Shown here in pieces: positions 9,330 to 14,733 of a stretch of 64,000 bases of DNA. Source of the stretch: a virus; IMG/VR virus record IMGVR_UViG_3300032401_000001, positions 96,001-160,000 of that record. The stretch is one strand, 5' to 3'. The position numbers and the translations under genes were made by a program. The first letter of the stretch is position 1, and each line of letters begins with the position of its first letter. The notes beneath the pieces were generated by a model. That model was not told where the DNA came from. It saw nothing but the letters and a program-made list of their open reading frames with translations, and ran no database searches.

Positions 9330-9760
9330 GAGTTCAGGAGCACAAGCTCAAGCTCAAGCTCAAACTGAGAAGACCGGCGTCGGGGATACCCCCGTGGAGG
9401 TTCGAGTCCTCCGGCTCCCACTGCGTAGCGTTTTCGGGAGTCTGGCGAAATGGCAGACGCAGCCGCTGGTCGAACGTTCAAGCTCAACTTGTTGCTCCAA
9501 GCTCAAACTGGGAACGTCGACACCGAATCGAACGCGAAGCAAACCACGACGGAAACGCGGGTTCGAATCCCGCCGGGATCTCCAGGCAGTGCTGCACCCT
9601 TTGATCCTGTAGCCCAGCGGAAAGGCGCCGTCGCTCAGATCTTATCGCTTCGCTTAAATGCCGTCGGTGGCGTATGCGTTCCAGCGCAAGAGTCACCCTT
9701 GAAAGGTGAATATCTACGCACCCGGCCGGGGGAGAGGATACCTCCCTCGGCCACTTTTTT
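9330..9760 (+). ncRNA. chain of two circularly permuted tRNA-like modules with repeated linker segments
   Basis: Order is T-arm plus 3' acceptor strand, short linker, 5' acceptor strand plus D-arm, occurring twice (9372-9471 and 9547-9633). Confidence 0.7.
9724..9760 (+). terminator. intrinsic terminator
   Basis: GGCCGGGGGAG/CTCCCTCGGCC hairpin plus T-run. Confidence 0.7.
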
Positions 9761-10048: not shown

Positions 10049-10136
10049 GCACGTGTAGGCCCGTAGGGCTCGGGGACCGGCTGTAAACCGGTTGGACACA
10101 GCGCCCAGGTTGGTTCGACTCCAGCCACGTGCACCA
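10049..10136 (+). tRNA. tRNA-Tyr(GUA)
   Basis: Cloverleaf, long variable arm, CCA encoded. Confidence 0.85.
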
Positions 10137-10178
10137 TGACCAGACGATTGAAACGCGAGGCGTGTCCTGTGTTCCCAC

Positions 10179-10251
10179 GCCTCCGTGACGCAACTGGTAG
10201 CGTAGCGGGCTTTTACCCCGAAAGTTGCAGGTTCGACTCCTGCCGGAGGCA
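10179..10251 (+). tRNA. tRNA-Lys(UUU)
   Basis: Cloverleaf, loop CTTTTAC. Confidence 0.9.
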
Positions 10252-10266
10252 CTGACGAGACGACAC

Positions 10267-10339
10267 ACGCGCCTAGCTCGACTGGCTGAGCACTCGGCTC
10301 TTACCCGAGAGGGTGTGGGTTCGACCCCCACGGCGCGTA
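10267..10339 (+). tRNA. tRNA-Lys(CUU)
   Basis: Cloverleaf, CTCGG-CTCTTAC-CCGAG. Confidence 0.85.
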
Positions 10340-10346
10340 CCGATGA

Positions 10347-10419
10347 TCGGGACTAGCACAACTGGTGGTGCACACGGCTCTGACCCGTGCGGCTTCAGGT
10401 TCGAATCCTGAGTCCCGAA
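10347..10419 (+). tRNA. tRNA-Gln(CUG)
   Basis: Cloverleaf, U1-A72. Confidence 0.9.
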
Positions 10420-10472
10420 CCGAGGGTGGTTGATCACCACCGTGACAACCGAATAGTCGTCGTGGTCAGTGT

Positions 10473-10543
10473 CCACCAGTGGCTCGAAGGTCGAGCGGCT
10501 GCCTTATGAGCGGCAGGTGAGGGTTCGATTCCTTCCTGGTGGA
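10473..10543 (+). tRNA. tRNA-Ile(UAU)
   Basis: CCACCAG/CTGGTGG acceptor; GCTGC-CTTATGA-GCGGC anticodon arm. Confidence 0.7.
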
Positions 10544-10549
10544 CTTCAT

Positions 10550-10621
10550 GCCTCGTGAGCTTGTAAGGTCGAGCGCTCGCCTGAAGAGCGAGAGGGCTCC
10601 GTTCGATTCGGAGACGAGGCA
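10550..10621 (+). tRNA. tRNA-Phe(GAA)
   Basis: Cloverleaf, CTCGC-CTGAAGA-GCGAG. Confidence 0.85.
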
Positions 10622-10628
10622 CCGACGA

Positions 10629-10700
10629 TCGGCCGTCGTCCAACGGTAGGACACTCGGCTTTGACCCGAGTAGTTGCACGTTCGAATCGTGCCGGCCGAA
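10629..10700 (+). tRNA. tRNA-Gln(UUG)
   Basis: Cloverleaf. Confidence 0.9.
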
Positions 10701-10704
10701 CTGA

Positions 10705-10781
10705 CGGGGTGTGGCTCAGCCTGGTAGAGCGCCTGCTTTGGGAGCAGGACGTCGCTGGTTCAAATCCAGTCACCCCGACCA
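10705..10781 (+). tRNA. tRNA-Pro(UGG)
   Basis: Canonical cloverleaf with CCA. Confidence 0.95.
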
Positions 10782-10782
10782 T

Positions 10783-10854
10783 TCTGGCGTCGCCTACTGG
10801 TAAGGCAGCCGGCTGTTAACCGGCCCTATGCAGGTTCGAATCCTGCCGCCAGAG
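10783..10854 (+). tRNA. tRNA-Asn(GUU)
   Basis: Cloverleaf, G73. Confidence 0.9.
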
Positions 10855-10860
10855 CAACAC

Positions 10861-10933
10861 GCAGCTCTAGCTCATTTGGTAGAGCACTCGCCCGATAAGC
10901 GAGAGGTGCCGAGTCCGAATCTCGGGAGCTGCA
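10861..10933 (+). tRNA. tRNA-Ile(GAU)
   Basis: Cloverleaf; C33 and an atypical T-loop. Confidence 0.8.
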
Positions 10934-10935
10934 CT

Positions 10936-11006
10936 GTGGCCGTGGCTCAATGGCTGAGCGCCGGGTTGTGGCCCCGGTTATGTGAGTTCGATTCTCACCG
11001 GTCACC
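10936..11006 (+). tRNA. tRNA-His(GUG)
   Basis: Cloverleaf, C73. Confidence 0.9.
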
Positions 11007-11010
11007 CCGC

Positions 11011-11081
11011 GGGTCGATCGTCCAATGGGAGGACAGTGCTCTCGCACGGCGCAGATCGGAGTTCAACTCTCCGTCGATCCA
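11011..11081 (+). tRNA. tRNA-Ala(CGC)
   Basis: Cloverleaf, G3.U70. Confidence 0.85.
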
Positions 11082-11085
11082 CAGA

Positions 11086-11156
11086 GGGGCCATCGTCCAA
11101 AGGGAAGATGCTGGTTCGGCAGACCAGAGATCGGGGTTCAATTCCCCGTGGCTCCA
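11086..11156 (+). tRNA. tRNA-Ala(GGC)
   Basis: Cloverleaf, G3.U70, C33. Confidence 0.85.
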
Positions 11157-11241
11157 CGAGAGGTAGGAGCGGGTTCGATTCCCGCCGAGGCATCGAGCGA
11201 TGGTGCTTCGTGGTGTAACCTGGCGAGCACAACCTCGTTAT
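11157..11241 (+). tRNA. circularly permuted tRNA-like element (3' half before 5' half)
   Basis: GAGGT, T-arm 11169-11185, CGAGGCA; 11 nt linker; TGCTTCG, D-arm, ACCTC; both stems pair. Confidence 0.65.
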
Positions 11242-11324
11242 GGAGAGTACTGGGGACGGTGACCCAACGCGGCTCGAACCCGCGGGCAGCCTCCGGGCTG
11301 GGCGTTCAACTCGTCTACTCTCCG
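11242..11324 (+). tRNA. tRNA-Ser(CGA), atypical Sec-like scaffold
   Basis: GGAGAGT(A)/(T)ACTCTCC, CGCGG-CTCGAAC-CCGCG, long variable arm, G73. Confidence 0.75.
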
Positions 11325-11330
11325 CAGCAT

Positions 11331-11403
11331 GCCGCTGAGCTCACCTGGTGGTGAGGCCCGCCTGTCACGCGGGAACCGGCGAGTTCGATCCTCGTCAGCG
11401 GCG
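11331..11403 (+). tRNA. tRNA-Asp(GUC)
   Basis: Cloverleaf, G73. Confidence 0.85.
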
Positions 11404-11462
11404 CCGAGCATCGGAGACCGGAACGCGTCCCGTGGGTACCCGGGCCGGAACGATGCTCATCT

Positions 11463-11549
11463 GGAAGCGCTGTGGGCATCGGTGCCCCACGCCGGTCCGC
11501 TACACCGGTGAGCCTCACGGCTCTGCTCGTTCAACTCGAGTCGCTTCCG
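11463..11549 (+). tRNA. tRNA-Ser(GCU), atypical Sec-like D-arm
   Basis: GGAAGCG/CGCTTCC, long D-stem with TCGG loop, long variable arm, G73. Confidence 0.7.
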
Positions 11550-11554
11550 CTCTC

Positions 11555-11630
11555 GCGGCCATAGTTCATTCAGTAGAACGCCGGCTTGCCAAGTCGGAGG
11601 TGCCGGGGGCAGAGCCCGGTGGCCGCTCCA
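11555..11630 (+). tRNA. tRNA-Gly(GCC)
   Basis: Cloverleaf with CCA; T-loop GGCAGAG is non-canonical. Confidence 0.85.
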
Positions 11631-11666
11631 ATTGCGAAAAGTCTCGGGTTAGAGTAGACTGTTTCC

Positions 11667-12062
11667 GTGCCCTACAAAGACCCTGACCAACAACGAGCAT
11701 ACATTCGAGCTTGGCGTCAGCAAAGACGGCGTACGTGGCTCACTGAACACGGACCGTGCATATACTGCAAGAGCACCCGACGTCTTGAAGTACACCACCG
11801 TGACCCAACAAAGAAGGTCACACACAACGTGTGGTCATGGTCAGAATCCCGTCGCGAAAGAGAACTCGCGAAGTGCGTCGTAGCGTGTCACCAGTGCCAT
11901 GAAAGAATCAGTACGACCGCACGAGAACCAAAGCACGGGACGAACAGTCGCTACACCAGTTACCGATACCGCTGTCGATGCACCGATTGTCACACTGCGC
12001 ACATCGCAGCAGATCGTGCATATCGACGAAAGAAACATGGAGAGGCCGACTCGCATCGGTGA
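11667..12062 (+). CDS. HNH endonuclease (with C-terminal HGT...CRC zinc motif)
   Basis: CIYC...LEVHHRDP...CVVACHQCH. Confidence 0.8.
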   Translation: MPYKDPDQQRAYIRAWRQQRRRTWLTEHGPCIYCKSTRRLEVHHRDPTKKVTHNVWSWSESRRERELAKCVVACHQCHERISTTAREPKHGTNSRYTSYRYRCRCTDCHTAHIAADRAYRRKKHGEADSHR

Positions 12063-12126
12063 CGAGCGCGTGTCTGGAAAGCACGTGTACCGAAAGGTAC
12101 TGAGCGTTCAACTCGCTTCCTCTCCG
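12039..12126 (+). tRNA. tRNA-Ser(GGA), atypical D-arm
   Basis: GGAGAGG/CCTCTCC, CGTGT-CTGGAAA-GCACG, long variable arm; overlaps the HNH 3' end. Confidence 0.75.
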
Positions 12127-12133
12127 CTACAAC

Positions 12134-12208
12134 GCGAGCTAAGTCACCGGGCGTGACGCCAGCCTTCCAAGCTGGACATGACGGGTTCGAGCCCCGTAGC
12201 TCGCTCCA
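12134..12208 (+). tRNA. tRNA-Gly(UCC)
   Basis: Cloverleaf with CCA. Confidence 0.85.
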
Positions 12209-12209
12209 T

Positions 12210-12282
12210 CCGGGTGTAGGGCAGTGGTTGTCCCGCCTGTTTCGGGAACAGGAGCACGCCAGTTCGATCCTGGCCGCCCGGA
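12210..12282 (+). tRNA. tRNA-Pro(CGG)
   Basis: Cloverleaf. Confidence 0.85.
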
Positions 12283-12286
12283 CAAC

Positions 12287-12375
12287 GCCAAGGTGGTTCG
12301 GAATTGGTAGACATCTCCGGCTGAGAACTGGAGGGGCGAAAGCCCGTGCGGGTTCGAGTCCCGCCCTTGGCACCA
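12287..12375 (+). tRNA. tRNA-Leu(GAG)
   Basis: Class II cloverleaf with CCA. Confidence 0.9.
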
Positions 12376-12376
12376 T

Positions 12377-12465
12377 GCACAGGTGGTTCGGAATTGGTAG
12401 ACATCCACGGCTCAGAACCGTGGGGGCGCAAGCCCGTGAGGGTTCGAGTCCCTCCCTGTGCACCA
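12377..12465 (+). tRNA. tRNA-Leu(CAG)
   Basis: Class II cloverleaf with CCA; near-duplicate of the previous gene. Confidence 0.9.
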
Positions 12466-12466
12466 C

Positions 12467-12542
12467 GCCGCTGAAGCTCACCAGGTAGAGCGCTCGGCTC
12501 GTATCCGAGAGGAAGCTGGTTCGAATCCAGTCAGCGGCTCCA
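12467..12542 (+). tRNA. tRNA-Thr(CGU)
   Basis: Cloverleaf with CCA. Confidence 0.9.
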
Positions 12543-12545
12543 TTC

Positions 12546-12618
12546 GCTGCGGTAGCACAATTGGCGGTGCATCTGATTTGTAATCAGAAGGTTCTCGGTT
12601 CGAAGCCGAGCCGCAGCT
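12546..12618 (+). tRNA. tRNA-Thr(UGU)
   Basis: Cloverleaf. Confidence 0.9.
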
Positions 12619-12641
12619 CCGCTCTTTACGCGGTAAAGAAC

Positions 12642-12712
12642 GGCCCCATCTGCTAACGGAAGGCAACTGGGTTCTCAACCCGGAAACGAGGGTTCAACTC
12701 CCTCTGGGGTCA
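12642..12712 (+). tRNA. tRNA-Glu(CUC)
   Basis: Cloverleaf. Confidence 0.85.
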
Positions 12713-12717
12713 CCGAC

Positions 12718-12792
12718 GCTCTCATGGTCTAACGGACAGGATACTGGACTTTCACTCCAGGGGCGGGAGTTCAACTCTCCCTGAGAGCACCA
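12718..12792 (+). tRNA. tRNA-Glu(UUC)
   Basis: Cloverleaf with CCA. Confidence 0.9.
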
Positions 12793-12793
12793 T

Positions 12794-12868
12794 CCGGGAT
12801 TGGTTCACTGGCGGAACGGCAGCCCTACAAGCTGCTCTAAGGGGGTTCGATTCCCTCATCCCGGACCA
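12794..12868 (+). tRNA. tRNA-Val(UAC)
   Basis: Cloverleaf with CCA, C33. Confidence 0.8.
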
Positions 12869-12869
12869 C

Positions 12870-12941
12870 ACGCGGTTGGCTCAGCGGCTGAGCACCTGCT
12901 CGACGCGCAGGTCTAGGCAGGTTCGACCCCTGCACCGCGTA
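12870..12941 (+). tRNA. tRNA-Val(GAC)
   Basis: Cloverleaf, C33. Confidence 0.8.
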
Positions 12942-12946
12942 CTGAT

Positions 12947-13019
12947 GGGTGCGTAGCTCACTTGGGAGAGCGCGAGCTTTGCAAGCTTGAGGCAGAGGGT
13001 TCGAATCCCTTCGCATCCA
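12947..13019 (+). tRNA. tRNA-Ala(UGC)
   Basis: Cloverleaf, G3.U70. Confidence 0.92.
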
Positions 13020-13025
13020 CTTCAT

Positions 13026-13101
13026 GCCGACGTAGCACATCTGGCAGTGCGCATCCTTGGTAAGGATGAGGTAGCCGGTTCGACTCCGGCCGTCGGCTCC
13101 A
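13026..13101 (+). tRNA. tRNA-Thr(GGU)
   Basis: Cloverleaf with CCA. Confidence 0.92.
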
Positions 13102-13102
13102 C

Positions 13103-13174
13103 GGGTCACGCTCTGGGTCAGCGCACTGGACTCCAAACCCGGTTGGCGGCGAGGTTCGATTCCTCGGTGACCCG
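13103..13174 (+). tRNA. tRNA-Trp(CCA)
   Basis: Cloverleaf, loop CTCCAAA, G73. Confidence 0.75.
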
Positions 13175-13178
13175 CTAC

Positions 13179-13252
13179 GGTACCGTCGCCAAGAGGCCAG
13201 GCTCCGGTCTGCAAAACCGGCAACGCGGGTTCAACTCCCGCCGGTACCTCCA
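13179..13252 (+). tRNA. tRNA-Cys(GCA)
   Basis: Cloverleaf, U73, CCA. Confidence 0.9.
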
Positions 13253-13253
13253 C

Positions 13254-13324
13254 GCTCCGCGGTGCGGCGCCAGCCGGGCCTTCTAATCCCAGCACTCCGG
13301 GTTCGACTCCCGGGCGGAGCTCCA
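13254..13324 (+). tRNA. tRNA-Arg(UCU), minimal D-arm
   Basis: GCTCCGC/GCGGAGC acceptor, loop CTTCTAA, shortened D-arm, imperfect anticodon stem. Confidence 0.6.
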
Positions 13325-13346
13325 GTTTCACCGTCTGCTGAAACCT

Positions 13347-13418
13347 GCCCCGCTAGTGAAACGGAGATCACAGCGCACTCCTAAGGCGCGAGTCCCAGTT
13401 CGACTCTGGGGCGGGGCG
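13347..13418 (+). tRNA. tRNA-Arg(CCU)
   Basis: Cloverleaf. Confidence 0.85.
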
Positions 13419-13422
13419 CTGC

Positions 13423-13494
13423 ACCGTCGTCCAAGCGGCTTGGCCTCGCCCTCCGAAGGCAAGTGTGAGGGTTCAACTCCCTCCGACGGTACCA
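13423..13494 (+). tRNA. tRNA-Arg(CCG)
   Basis: Cloverleaf with CCA, unusual D-arm. Confidence 0.7.
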
Positions 13495-13495
13495 T

Positions 13496-13567
13496 CTCCT
13501 CCTAGTGAAACGGACATCACTCTGGTCTACGGAACCAGCATTCCGAGTTCGAATCTCGGGGAGGAGG
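13496..13567 (+). tRNA. tRNA-Arg(ACG)
   Basis: Cloverleaf. Confidence 0.85.
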
Positions 13568-13571
13568 CTAC

Positions 13572-13653
13572 GCGAGCGTGGCGGAACTGGCAGACGCGCC
13601 GGACTTAGGCTCCGGTGTCGCAAGACGTGCAGGTTCAACTCCTGTCGCTCGCA
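13572..13653 (+). tRNA. tRNA-Leu(UAG)
   Basis: Class II cloverleaf. Confidence 0.92.
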
Positions 13654-13658
13654 CCGAC

Positions 13659-13746
13659 GCGTGAGTGGGTGGAACCGGCAGACCCGGCTGCCTTAAAAGC
13701 GGCTGCTCTTCGGAGCGTGCGAGTTCGAGTCTCGCCTCACGCACCA
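13659..13746 (+). tRNA. tRNA-Leu(UAA)
   Basis: Class II cloverleaf with CCA. Confidence 0.9.
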
Positions 13747-13747
13747 C

Positions 13748-13823
13748 TGCGGGGAGGACCGGCTGTCCGGCCCGGCCTCATAAGCCGGCTTGCACGAGGG
13801 TTCGACTCCCTCCTCCGCAACCA
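13748..13823 (+). tRNA. tRNA-Met(CAU)
   Basis: Loop CTCATAA, CCA; fMet/Met/Ile2 status not resolved. Confidence 0.75.
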
Positions 13824-13824
13824 A

Positions 13825-13897
13825 CAGGGTAGGGCTCGGATGGTTGAGCGCCAGTCTGGGGGACTGGAGGACGCGGGTTCGAGTCCCGCTGCCCTGA
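13825..13897 (+). tRNA. tRNA-Pro(GGG)
   Basis: Cloverleaf. Confidence 0.85.
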
Positions 13898-13901
13898 CTA
13901 C

Positions 13902-13986
13902 GCGAGCGTGCTTGGAATTGGCAGACAGCACCGGCTCAAACCCGGTGGCCCTTCGGGACATGAGGGTTCGACTCCCTCCGCTCGCA
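13902..13986 (+). tRNA. tRNA-Leu(CAA)
   Basis: Class II cloverleaf. Confidence 0.9.
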
Positions 13987-14053
13987 CTGACGATGACCAC
14001 GTCGGCTATTCTTAGGGAGTACCATGACCTGGAAGATACGCTTGAGGTGACCC

Positions 14054-14563
14054 GTGCAAACGACCTTAGTACTGGACCAATCGATGCAACCCATCAACAT
14101 CGTCTCCTGGCATCGTGCTGTCGGCATGATGCTGACGGGGTCAGCGGACGTGCTCGAAGAGTACGACCAGCTCGTGCATCCGTGGATTCAGATGCCGGCC
14201 GTCGTCCGCCTCAAGCACAACGTCAGCCGCGGCAAGCAGAAGGTGAAGTTCAGCCGCGCCAACGTGCTGATGCGGGATCGTTGCCGGTGCCAGTACTGTG
14301 GGCAGAAATTCTCGGCCCGGGAGTTGACGTTCGACCACGTCGTGCCCCGCTGCCGCGGCGGCAAGACCGAGTGGGAGAACATCGTCATGGCTTGCTGGCC
14401 GTGCAACGATGCCAAGGGTGGGCGGCTACCTCAACAGGCCGACATGCGGCTCCTCCGCGCGCCGGTACGGCCCTCGTGGGTGCCGCACTACAACCCTCGG
14501 CTGAAGACGTGCGATGTTCCACCCGAGTGGCGATGCTACTGGACGGTGGAGCTCGAGTCGTAG
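14054..14563 (+). CDS. HNH endonuclease (McrA-like)
   Basis: CQYCG...LTFDHVVPRCRGGKTEWENIVMACWPCNDAKG. Confidence 0.9.
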   Translation: MQTTLVLDQSMQPINIVSWHRAVGMMLTGSADVLEEYDQLVHPWIQMPAVVRLKHNVSRGKQKVKFSRANVLMRDRCRCQYCGQKFSARELTFDHVVPRCRGGKTEWENIVMACWPCNDAKGGRLPQQADMRLLRAPVRPSWVPHYNPRLKTCDVPPEWRCYWTVELES

Positions 14564-14639
14564 TAGGATGAAATCTCTGGTGATCGTCGTGCTGGTAGAC
14601 GGCGCTCCGTGTCGCTACACGGGGCGCCGTCGCTATTTT

Positions 14640-14723
14640 GGAGACGTCGCTCAGTTGGTCGAGCAGTCGCCTTGAAAGCGGCCAGGCCGAAAGGCTCTGC
14701 GAGTTCGAATCTCGCCGTCTCCG
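14640..14723 (+). tRNA. tRNA-Ser(UGA)
   Basis: Class II cloverleaf, G73. Confidence 0.9.
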
Positions 14724-14733
14724 CTTCTTTAGG

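What the first reader, a model, noticed from the sequence alone, without database searches (positions are those of the whole stretch)
11157..11241. Circularly permuted tRNA gene embedded in the phage tRNA array
Seen: between tRNA-Ala(GGC) and tRNA-Ser(CGA) the order is GAGGT (11160-11164), a 4 nt variable loop, T-arm 11169-11185, CGAGGCA (11186-11192), an 11 nt linker, TGCTTCG (11204-11210), D-arm GTGTAACCTGGCGAGCAC, then ACCTC (11232-11236). The acceptor (7 bp) and anticodon (5 bp) stems both pair, and the break falls in the anticodon loop. Processing the neighbouring tRNAs would release it with GUUAU and CGA ends. Inference: ligation could make a GUUAUGA loop (UAU). Alternatively, the upstream UCCACGA would read as Val(CAC), which is missing from the array, but it overlaps the Ala acceptor. 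As far as I know permuted tRNAs are described from algae and archaea, not phages. An anticodon-less tRNA could also be a decoy for tRNA-targeting defences.
Basis: partly seen in the sequence, partly recalled or inferred. Interest (0 to 1): 0.8.

Follow-up and report, generated by a model that had tools for sequence, protein, structure and literature searches.

The report
Anticodon-less tRNA mimic in phage array
Between two ordinary tRNA genes of a 198-kb uncultured phage lies a small conserved RNA with all four tRNA arms in rotated order, a capped acceptor end and no anticodon loop. It is best read as a free-standing tRNA look-alike of the kind seen in bacterial Y RNAs, not as a split tRNA gene that has to be re-joined.

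Summary
At 11157-11241, between tRNA-Ala(GGC) and tRNA-Ser(CGA), the order is anticodon-stem 3' strand, variable loop, T-arm, acceptor, D-arm, anticodon-stem 5' strand. Rotated, ARAGORN calls a cloverleaf; 2000 shuffles and about 5000 random genomic 85-mers gave none.

It is not debris. A related phage contig (L003; tRNAs median 74% identical) holds a 78-nt element of the same layout in the same slot. It is 63% identical, with 8 of 23 pairs changed on both sides and 98% of cells still paired.

The re-joined decoding tRNA is not supported:
- The acceptor is a continuous 9-bp capped hairpin in both copies.
- The would-be anticodon loop differs in length (8 nt here; 4 or 7 nt in L003) and gives no sensible anticodon.
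- The complete phage genome has no Rnl1, Rnl2-type or RtcB ligase.

The layout matches the tRNA-like domain of YrlA Y RNAs, but there is no Ro-binding stem and no Ro60 gene. I read it as a stand-alone, acceptor-closed, anticodon-less tRNA mimic released by processing of its neighbours. Its partner is unknown.

This scan has noted the same kind of element before on other phage DNA (e1-3433005), and two larger ones 1.5 kb upstream in this genome.

The parts
11086..11156 (+). Upstream neighbour, tRNA-Ala(GGC) with G3:U70. Its 3' maturation would set the 5' end of the element.
   Evidence: ARAGORN; Rfam tRNA 50 bits. It is 96% identical to the L003 copy.
11157..11159 (+). 3-nt spacer CGA. L003 has CCA here, the encoded 3' end of its tRNA-Ala.
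11160..11164 (+). Terminal stem, 5' strand (equivalent to anticodon-stem positions 39-43).
   Evidence: Pairs with 11232-36 in the minimum-energy fold. Two of its 5 pairs are changed on both sides in L003.
11165..11168 (+). 4-nt variable loop AGGA.
11169..11185 (+). Canonical T-arm: 5-bp stem and a TTCGATT loop.
   Evidence: matched by the T-arm positions of the YrlA and tmRNA Rfam models
11186..11210 (+). Acceptor-like hairpin closed by a cap: 9 bp (11186-94 with 11202-10) and a 7-nt loop (11195-11201).
   Evidence: Minimum-energy fold. In L003, 4 pairs are changed on both sides, 1 on one side and 1 is mismatched.
11211..11212 (+). TG, equivalent to U8 and N9.
11213..11230 (+). D-arm: 4-bp stem and a 10-nt loop with A14, G18-G19 and A21 equivalents.
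   Evidence: 2 pairs changed on both sides and 1 on one side in L003
11231..11236 (+). A26 equivalent, then the terminal stem 3' strand ACCTC (equivalent to anticodon-stem positions 27-31).
11237..11241 (+). 3' tail GTTAT, ending at the RNase P site of tRNA-Ser. L003 has (C)GTAT.
11242..11325 (+). Downstream neighbour, tRNA-Ser(CGA). Its 5' maturation would set the 3' end of the element.
   Evidence: ARAGORN. It shares an exact 87-mer with L003.
9545..9637 (+). A larger tRNA-like head of the same arm order in the RNA downstream of the DUF7873 gene. It is a paralogue in kind, not part of the element.
   Evidence: Model R1 gives 27.1 bits, E 7e-5; sequence read.

Best explanation
The element is a small non-coding RNA gene for a free-standing tRNA-body mimic. 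It has a T-arm, a D-arm and a variable loop. The acceptor helix is sealed by a cap, and a short terminal stem stands where the anticodon arm would be.

Proposed steps:
1. It is transcribed as part of the polycistronic tRNA precursor (inferred).
2. It is released as an RNA of about 80 nt by the cuts that mature its neighbours: 3' maturation of tRNA-Ala upstream and RNase P at the 5' end of tRNA-Ser downstream (inferred).
3. It folds into a four-way junction with the nucleotides that build the tRNA elbow (the secondary structure is shown by sequence, fold and covariation; the L-shape is inferred from the conserved elbow nucleotides).
4. With no free CCA end and no anticodon loop it can be neither charged nor used in decoding. 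It would act as a non-consumable ligand (tether, competitor or decoy) for a protein that recognises tRNA shape. The likeliest partner is whatever binds the tRNA-like heads of the DUF7873-linked RNA 1.5 kb upstream (inferred; partner unknown).

Its likely origin is the inner halves of a tandem tRNA duplicate. It has since been kept by selection on shape rather than on sequence.
For: - The layout and all pairings are present.
- Independent minimum-energy folds of the window copy and the L003 copy give the same four-way junction. The L003 fold has z = -3.7.
- L003 has the same tRNA order and an element in the same Ala|Ser slot.
- On the structural alignment A4, 23 pairs are 97.8% paired, with 8 changed on both sides and 2 on one side. 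Controls with the 3' partner slid by 1-3 columns give 0-2 double changes and 35-54% pairing.
- The acceptor is a 9-bp closed hairpin in both copies, with a 7-nt loop here and a GCGA tetraloop in L003.
- Elbow nucleotides (U8, A14, G18-G19, A21, the T-loop TTCGA and G53-C61) are kept in both copies.
- The Rfam YrlA model aligns only its tRNA-like domain (positions 26-82) to the element, in the same order: 15.9 bits here and 27.2 bits in L003.
- Model R1, built from the element, picks out tRNA-like heads next to Ro60 genes (L007, L008), next to DUF7873 genes (L002, L006, window 9545-9637), and next to the Ro60 gene of Gordonia phage GMA2. A BLAST match of the L003 module lies just upstream of the Ro-like gene of Gordonia phage Cashline.
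- There is no strong + strand terminator-like site between 9752 and 14598, and only two short weak ones at 13987-14005, beyond the element.
- No RNA ligase family was found in the complete genome.
Against: - Only two diverged orthologous copies and one polymorphic paralogue were found, so covariation rests on one pairwise comparison.
- The window copy's fold is not more stable than its shuffles (z = -0.9).
- No expression data exist, because the phage is uncultured.
- No binding partner is identified. The genome has no Ro60 and the element has no Ro-binding stem.
- The first 7 bp of the hairpin are exactly an acceptor stem. M. smegmatis RNase P opens such a closed 7-bp stem in YrlA in vivo (PMC4201824), so the cap may not stay closed.
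Confidence: 0.68

Rival explanations
1. Two-piece tRNA-like RNA. After release, RNase P cuts at the 5' side of the 7-bp acceptor (11203/11204), the cap is trimmed and CCA is added, as happens to M. smegmatis YrlA. The two halves stay base-paired, with a free acceptor end and an open anticodon stem, and might be charged.
For: The first 7 pairs of the hairpin are a regular acceptor stem. In the extra module of L011 the stem is exactly 7 bp with a tetraloop. Chen et al. [quoted passage not shown]
Against: Pairing continues past bp 7 in the window and L003 copies (9 bp). L003 has a G.G mismatch at bp 4. The acceptor sequence and the base at the discriminator position are not conserved between copies, so no amino-acid identity is kept.
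Confidence: 0.12
2. True circularly permuted tRNA gene. The released RNA's ends are ligated to form an anticodon loop, then the linker is removed, giving a decoding tRNA (UAU or similar).
For: The arm order is the one known from permuted tRNA genes. The ends left by RNase P and RNase Z (3'-OH, 5'-P) would suit an ATP-dependent RNA ligase. ARAGORN calls Ile(tat) if one base is dropped.
Against: The joined loop is 8 nt here and 4 nt (7 with the neighbour's CCA) in L003, with no common anticodon. tRNA-Ile(TAT) already exists at 10473-10544. The linker is base-paired and capped. No Rnl1, Rnl2-type or RtcB gene, and no homologue of the Racecar ligase, is in the complete genome. I know of no splicing endonuclease in bacteria, and no bulge-helix-bulge motif can form, because the flanks are whole tRNAs.
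Confidence: 0.04
3. Non-functional relic: the inner halves of a former tandem tRNA duplicate, left by deletions in a recombination-prone array.
For: Junctions of tandem isoacceptors in this same array already give a cloverleaf when rotated. Modules come and go: L011 is identical to the window over 10908-12422 except for an extra 78-nt module where the window has 4 nt.
Against: Eight compensatory pair changes and a kept position across a divergence in which tRNAs are only 74% identical. No parent tRNA is recognisable. The acceptor has been extended and capped.
Confidence: 0.06
4. Cis-acting processing element. The tRNA-shaped spacer exists to recruit or position RNase P or RNase Z, or to keep two unusual neighbours (Ala with C33; Ser on an 8/4 scaffold) from misfolding in the precursor. 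It has no role once released.
For: It sits exactly between two atypical tRNAs that are the two most conserved of 36 between the window and L003 (96% and 99%). The spacers on both sides are as short as between ordinary tRNAs.
Against: The extra module in L011 sits in another slot (Ser|Asp), and the window does without it. Similar modules elsewhere belong to free RNAs beside Ro60 or DUF7873 genes.
Confidence: 0.1

Closest known systems
tRNA-like domain of YrlA Y RNAs (Rfam RF02553; Chen et al. 2014, PMC4201824), including those of actinobacteriophages beside Ro60 genes
   Same: The arm order is identical: variable region, T-arm, loop-closed acceptor-like stem, D-arm, then a stem in place of the anticodon arm. 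Elbow nucleotides are conserved. The Rfam model aligns its positions 26-82 to the element. Model R1 finds a module beside the Ro60 gene of Gordonia phage GMA2, and a BLAST match of the L003 module lies beside the Ro-like gene of Cashline.
   Different: There is no Ro-binding stem and no GNCGAA motif, only a 5-6 bp terminal stem. No Ro60/TROVE gene is in the complete genome. The element is embedded tRNA-to-tRNA inside the array and is about 80 nt instead of 110-150 nt. Scores are far below the family threshold (16-27 against 69 bits).
The two tRNA-like heads of the DUF7873-linked RNA in the same genome (window about 9330-9760; scan notes e1-5811065 and e1-5811066)
   Same: Same rotated tRNA layout with a closed 7-bp acceptor, same genome and same strand, 1.5 kb upstream. 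R1 matches head 2 at 27 bits.
   Different: Those heads sit on long stems within one RNA of about 425 nt that follows a protein gene, and they carry 15-22 nt acceptor loops. The element here is minimal and separate. Beyond generic T-arm bases there is no sequence similarity.
Circularly permuted tRNA genes of Cyanidioschyzon merolae and other algae, and of Thermofilum pendens (Soma et al. 2007; Chan et al. 2011; from my own knowledge, mentioned in review PMC3400036)
   Same: The 3' half lies upstream of the 5' half, joined by a short linker at the acceptor, with the break in the anticodon-loop region.
   Different: Those genes give a complete, conserved 7-nt anticodon loop after processing at a bulge-helix-bulge motif by the splicing endonuclease and a ligase, and their linker is removed by RNase P and tRNase Z. 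Here the loop is not conserved, no such motif or enzymes are present, and the linker is a paired cap.
Two-piece (permuted) tmRNA (Rfam RF04321)
   Same: A permuted gene order in a bacterial or phage tRNA-like RNA, with the acceptor 3' strand encoded before the 5' strand.
   Different: From my own knowledge, two-piece tmRNA is cut into two chains, is charged with alanine and carries an mRNA module. Only the 17-nt T-arm of the element matches that model (10.8 bits).
Stable non-tRNA RNAs of the phage T4 tRNA cluster (species 1 and 2, rnaC and rnaD; from my own knowledge)
   Same: Small stable RNAs co-transcribed and co-processed with phage tRNAs, function unknown.
   Different: Not compared here. 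I know of no report that they have a rotated tRNA layout.

Membership tests
Circularly permuted tRNA gene (Soma 2007 type) | 3' half encoded upstream of the 5' half, with acceptor strands joined by a short intervening sequence | tested here: met
Circularly permuted tRNA gene (Soma 2007 type) | Joining the termini gives a standard 7-nt anticodon loop with a conserved, sensible anticodon | tested here: not met
   The loop is 8 nt here and 4 nt (7 with the neighbour's CCA) in the L003 copy. There is no shared anticodon, and Ile(TAT) is already present in the array.
Circularly permuted tRNA gene (Soma 2007 type) | Leader and trailer form a bulge-helix-bulge motif for the splicing endonuclease, and a ligase is available | tested here: not met
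   The flanks are complete tRNAs 3 and 5 nt away. PF09511, PF09414 and PF01139 are absent from the complete genome. Host enzymes are unknown.
Circularly permuted tRNA gene (Soma 2007 type) | Single-stranded linker after the discriminator that RNase P and RNase Z can remove | tested here: inconclusive
   The linker is paired into a 9-bp capped helix in both copies. RNase P nevertheless opens a closed 7-bp stem in M. smegmatis YrlA.
YrlA / bacterial Y RNA (RF02553) | tRNA-like domain with the order T-arm, closed acceptor-like stem, D-arm | tested here: met
   The model's positions 26-82 align in that order; folds.
YrlA / bacterial Y RNA (RF02553) | Ro60-binding terminal helix and the conserved GNCGAA motif | tested here: not met
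   Model positions 1-25 and 83-114 are unmatched. The terminal stem is only 5-6 bp and is bounded by tRNAs.
YrlA / bacterial Y RNA (RF02553) | Encoded beside, or together with, an rsr/Ro60 (TROVE) gene | tested here: not met
   PF05731 is absent from the complete 197.8-kb genome, while the control genomes were detected.
YrlA / bacterial Y RNA (RF02553) | Reaches the Rfam gathering score (69 bits) | tested here: not met
   15.9 bits (window) and 27.2 bits (L003).
Ordinary tRNA gene | Recognised in the genomic order by ARAGORN or by Rfam RF00005 | tested here: not met
   No call on either strand at 11157-11241.

The most novel reading that the evidence does not exclude
Free-standing, anticodon-less, capped tRNA bodies are fast-evolving, cassette-like counter-defence RNAs of phage tRNA arrays. 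They occupy a host tRNA-recognising effector (for example a tRNA-directed nuclease or sensor that docks on the tRNA body) without being consumable. That would explain why they diverge in sequence between almost identical neighbouring tRNAs, and why they are gained and lost between strain-level variants.
Probability: 0.15. Interest if true: 0.8.

Novelty: new variant of a known kind. Interest (0 to 1): 0.5.

Why it matters
Phage tRNA arrays are usually annotated as lists of tRNAs, and the short gaps between them are ignored. Here a gap holds a structured RNA kept by selection. It has the shape of a tRNA but can neither be charged nor decode.

It shows that the tRNA-like head known from Ro60-bound Y RNAs can exist on its own, in a phage without Ro60. 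This suggests the head has a partner or function of its own. That partner might be a tRNA-processing or tRNA-modifying enzyme, a ribosome-associated factor, or a host defence protein that senses or cuts tRNAs.

The pattern of fast sequence change between near-identical neighbours, and the presence or absence of a second module between near-identical strains, suggests that these modules turn over quickly, as expected for parts of a host-phage conflict. The element also warns against annotating such intervals as permuted or split tRNA genes.

Tried and rejected
- **Exact DNA patterns in IMG/VR.** A 21-mer of the 3' half, the Ala-gap-Ser anchor pattern and a Ser(CGA) 24-mer all gave no hit. The single metagenome scan gave only L011, whose element is identical.
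- **The search for related loci with single proteins.** The DUF7873 protein and the 579-aa ATPase found nothing. With an alignment of the ATPase it found 12 loci at 34-61% identity, but these have no tRNA arrays and no R1 match, and neither do five of their full records.
- **Contigs of more distant DUF7873 or ATPase homologues.** L006-L010, L012-L016, L036 and L037 lack the big array. L036 has only three tRNAs at that place. The slot could therefore be compared in one diverged relative only.
- **blastn against cultured phages.** The 700-nt region hit only a tRNA-His stretch of Myrna and Phabba.
- **Parent tRNA.** No tRNA of either array resembles both halves beyond generic arm consensus.
- **MAFFT alignment of the two copies.** It was not structure-consistent, so I used a covariance-model alignment.
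- **L011's second module.** I tried to bring it into the structural alignment, but it scores too low (19 bits) and was not recovered at the threshold used. It is described by hand only.
- **Literature.** Searches for permuted tRNA in phages, YrlA in phages, and tRNA-like decoys found no description of a stand-alone element of this kind.

Full report
**Context**

The window is bases 96001-160000 of a 197,792-bp IMG/VR virus record rated 100% complete, with 63% G+C. From 10049 to 14724 it carries a dense + strand array. ARAGORN finds 38 tRNAs there. Four more are missed by default settings: Asp(GTC), Gly(GCC), Trp(CCA) and a D-arm-poor Arg(TCT). Upstream lie an RRM protein gene, a tmRNA and a DUF7873 gene. 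The nearest cultured relatives are only distant: the Arthrobacter phages Racecar, Mimi and Talia1610, about 47% identical in DUF7873.

- The interval 11157-11241 lies between tRNA-Ala(GGC), whose discriminator is at 11156, and tRNA-Ser(CGA), which starts at 11242.
- No tRNA is called there in the genomic order by ARAGORN or Rfam.
- Joining 11204-11241 to 11157-11192 gives a clean cloverleaf with a 7-bp acceptor, 4-bp D stem, 5-bp anticodon stem and 5-bp T stem. Its loop is 8 nt.
- The same rotation gave no ARAGORN call in 2000 shuffles of the element or in about 5000 random 85-mers of the genome.
- Three of 27 junctions between adjacent tRNAs pass the rotation test, all between tandem isoacceptors. 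This shows how such an element can arise: from the inner halves of a tandem duplicate.

**A diverged relative keeps the fold in the same slot**

Through the DUF7873 protein I reached L003, a 30-kb JGI metagenome contig. Its DUF7873 is 81% identical and its neighbouring ATPase 73%. It has the same tRNA order, and orthologous tRNAs are 59-99% identical, median 74%.

Between its Ala(GGC) and Ser(CGA) lies a 78-nt interval with the same layout: terminal stem strand, 4-nt variable loop, canonical T-arm, hairpin, TA, D-arm, A, complementary terminal stem strand, 4-5 nt tail.

- It is 63% identical to the window element.
- Independent minimum-energy folds of both give the same four-way junction.
- On the covariance-model alignment A4, 23 pairs are 97.8% paired. 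Eight are changed on both sides (2 in the terminal stem, 4 in the hairpin, 2 in the D stem), two on one side, and one is mismatched.
- Controls with the 3' partner slid by 1-3 columns give 0-2 double changes and 35-54% pairing.
- With two sequences this is a count, not a statistical test.
- The elbow-building nucleotides (U8, A14, G18-G19, A21, the T-loop TTCGA, G53-C61) are kept in both copies.

**Why it is not a tRNA gene waiting for a ligase**

1. In both copies the acceptor pairing runs on through the linker. It forms 9 bp with a 7-nt loop here, and 9 bp (one G.G mismatch) with a GCGA tetraloop in L003. The acceptor end is sealed by structure, not joined by a disposable single strand.
2. 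The loop that ligation would create is not conserved. It is 8 nt here. In L003 it is 4 nt, or 7 nt if the CCA encoded at the end of the neighbouring tRNA-Ala were included. There is no common or sensible anticodon. Ile(TAT) already exists in the array.
3. The complete genome has no match to Rnl1 (PF09511), the Rnl2/DNA-ligase-like RNA ligase family (PF09414) or RtcB (PF01139), nor to the RNA ligase that Racecar encodes among its tRNAs. The host's enzymes are unknown.

**What it resembles**

The arm order (variable region, T-arm, loop-closed acceptor-like stem, D-arm, then a stem in place of the anticodon arm) is that of the tRNA-like domain of YrlA Y RNAs (Chen et al. 2014, PMC4201824).

- The Rfam YrlA model aligns exactly that domain (positions 26-82 of 114) to the element: 15.9 bits here and 27.2 bits in L003. 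The Ro-binding parts are unmatched, and the scores are far below the 69-bit threshold.
- Model R1, built from the window element, finds the L003 copy at 45 bits.
- At 20-32 bits, R1 also finds tRNA-like heads after Ro60 genes (L007, L008), after DUF7873 genes (Racecar L002, L006, L036) and at window 9545-9637.
- A blastn search with the L003 copy found unannotated modules of this order in cultured actinophages. Gordonia phage GMA2 has two, between a Ro60 gene and its tRNA array. Cashline has one just upstream of its Ro-like gene. Microbacterium phage A3Wally has two.
- The element therefore belongs structurally with these heads. But it has no Ro-binding stem, the genome has no TROVE gene, and it stands alone inside the array. 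It works like the head of a Y RNA without being a YrlA.

**How I think it works**

Shown:
- the sequence layout;
- the shared fold of two diverged copies;
- compensatory changes;
- the capped acceptor;
- the absence of ligase and Ro60 genes from the phage genome.

Inferred:
- Co-transcription with the array. No strong + strand terminator-like site lies between 9752 and 14598, and only two short weak ones are at 13987-14005, beyond the element.
- Release by 3' maturation of tRNA-Ala and by RNase P at tRNA-Ser.
- Folding into an L-shape.
- Action as a non-chargeable, non-decoding ligand for a protein that recognises tRNA shape. The likeliest partner is the same one as for the tRNA-like heads of the neighbouring DUF7873-linked RNA.

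The main rival is opening of the cap by RNase P followed by CCA addition. This was demonstrated for M. smegmatis YrlA, which has a closed 7-bp acceptor. The first 7 bp here are a regular acceptor stem, so this cannot be excluded without an assay.

**Turnover and unexplained features**

- L011 is a 1.6-kb metagenome contig identical to the window over 10908-12422. It carries an additional 78-nt module of the same order between Ser(CGA) and the next tRNA, where the window has only 4 nt.
- That module has a 7-bp hairpin with a tetraloop, a canonical D-arm, a degenerate T-loop, and a terminal stem that uses the CCA of tRNA-Ser.
- Between the window and L003, the two tRNAs flanking the element are the most conserved of all 36 (96% and 99%, with exact 63- and 87-mers), while the element between them is 63% identical.
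- Either the element evolves fast between constrained or recently converted neighbours, or modules are exchanged at exact tRNA borders. I cannot tell which.

**Relation to earlier notes of this scan**

- Two larger heads upstream were followed up (e1-5811065, e1-5811066). I confirmed head 2 with my own model and read both.
- A minimal module of the same kind, without Ro60, was reported from another giant phage (e1-3433005), and Ro60-linked ones from Felix O1-type phages (e1-4047108 and others). I did not test those.
- The kind of element has therefore been found by this scan before, on other DNA.
- I found no published description of a stand-alone version.

**Verdict**

The interpretation as a permuted order under selection is right, but the re-joined decoding tRNA is not supported. 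The best reading is a stand-alone, acceptor-closed, anticodon-less tRNA mimic. It is a new variant of the YrlA-type tRNA-like domain. Its function is unknown.

Noticed in passing
L011:419-496 (window has only AGCA at 11326-11329): A contig otherwise identical to the window carries an extra 78-nt permuted tRNA-like module between tRNA-Ser(CGA) and the next tRNA. It has a 7-bp hairpin with a TGCA loop, a canonical D-arm and a degenerate 8-nt T-loop, and its terminal stem pairs with the CCA of tRNA-Ser.
   Followed up: partly
window 11086-11156 and 11242-11325 against L003 10305-10378 and 10457-10541: The two tRNAs flanking the element are 96% and 99% identical between the two phages. The other 34 orthologous tRNAs are 59-95% identical (median of all 36: 74%). 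The conserved flanks surround a 63%-identical element.
   Followed up: partly
window 11331-11405: A tRNA missed by default ARAGORN and by Rfam. Its anticodon loop CTGTCAC reads Asp(GTC), like the ARAGORN-called Asp in the same place in L003. ARAGORN at a relaxed threshold calls it Val(cac) in another register. It has A instead of U at position 8.
   Followed up: partly
window 11555-11627, 13102-13174, 13254-13324: Three further tRNAs missed by default ARAGORN: Gly(GCC) with an odd T-loop GGCAGAG and an encoded CCA; Trp(CCA); and Arg(TCT) with a poor D-arm and an encoded CCA. The Arg resembles the rewired Arg tRNA of scan note e1-228477.
   Followed up: partly
window 11406-11462: A 57-nt hairpin with an 8-bp closing stem sits between the Asp tRNA and tRNA-Ser(GCT) (z = -2.7). 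It is also present in L011. It is not tRNA-like.
   Followed up: no
window 11667-12062 and 14054-14563: One HNH-family gene (Pfam HNH/HNH_5) lies just after the main tRNA run. Inside the array there is also an ORF of weak coding signal with an HNH-like His/Cys motif, which is absent from L003 at that place.
   Followed up: no
L034:2411-2565 (Gordonia phage GMA2), L033:2354-2553 (Microbacterium phage A3Wally), L035 about 2001-2053 (Gordonia phage Cashline): Cultured actinophages carry unannotated T-arm / closed-hairpin / D-arm modules. In GMA2 and Cashline they lie next to Ro60 genes. In A3Wally no Ro60 gene is within the 5 kb I looked at.
   Followed up: partly
L036:12427-13473: A relative with the same gene order (ATPase 67% identical, DUF7873 57%) has only three tRNAs where the window has about 42. 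The large array is therefore a recent expansion in the window/L003 lineage.
   Followed up: no
L007, L008, L015 and the contig of P0038: In other large phages the DUF7873 gene lies within a few kb of genes for Ro60, RtcB, a Pnkp-like kinase-phosphatase or an RNA ligase (an RNA-repair neighbourhood). Of these, Ro60, RtcB and RNA ligase were searched for and not found in the window's genome; a Pnkp-like gene was not searched for.
   Followed up: no
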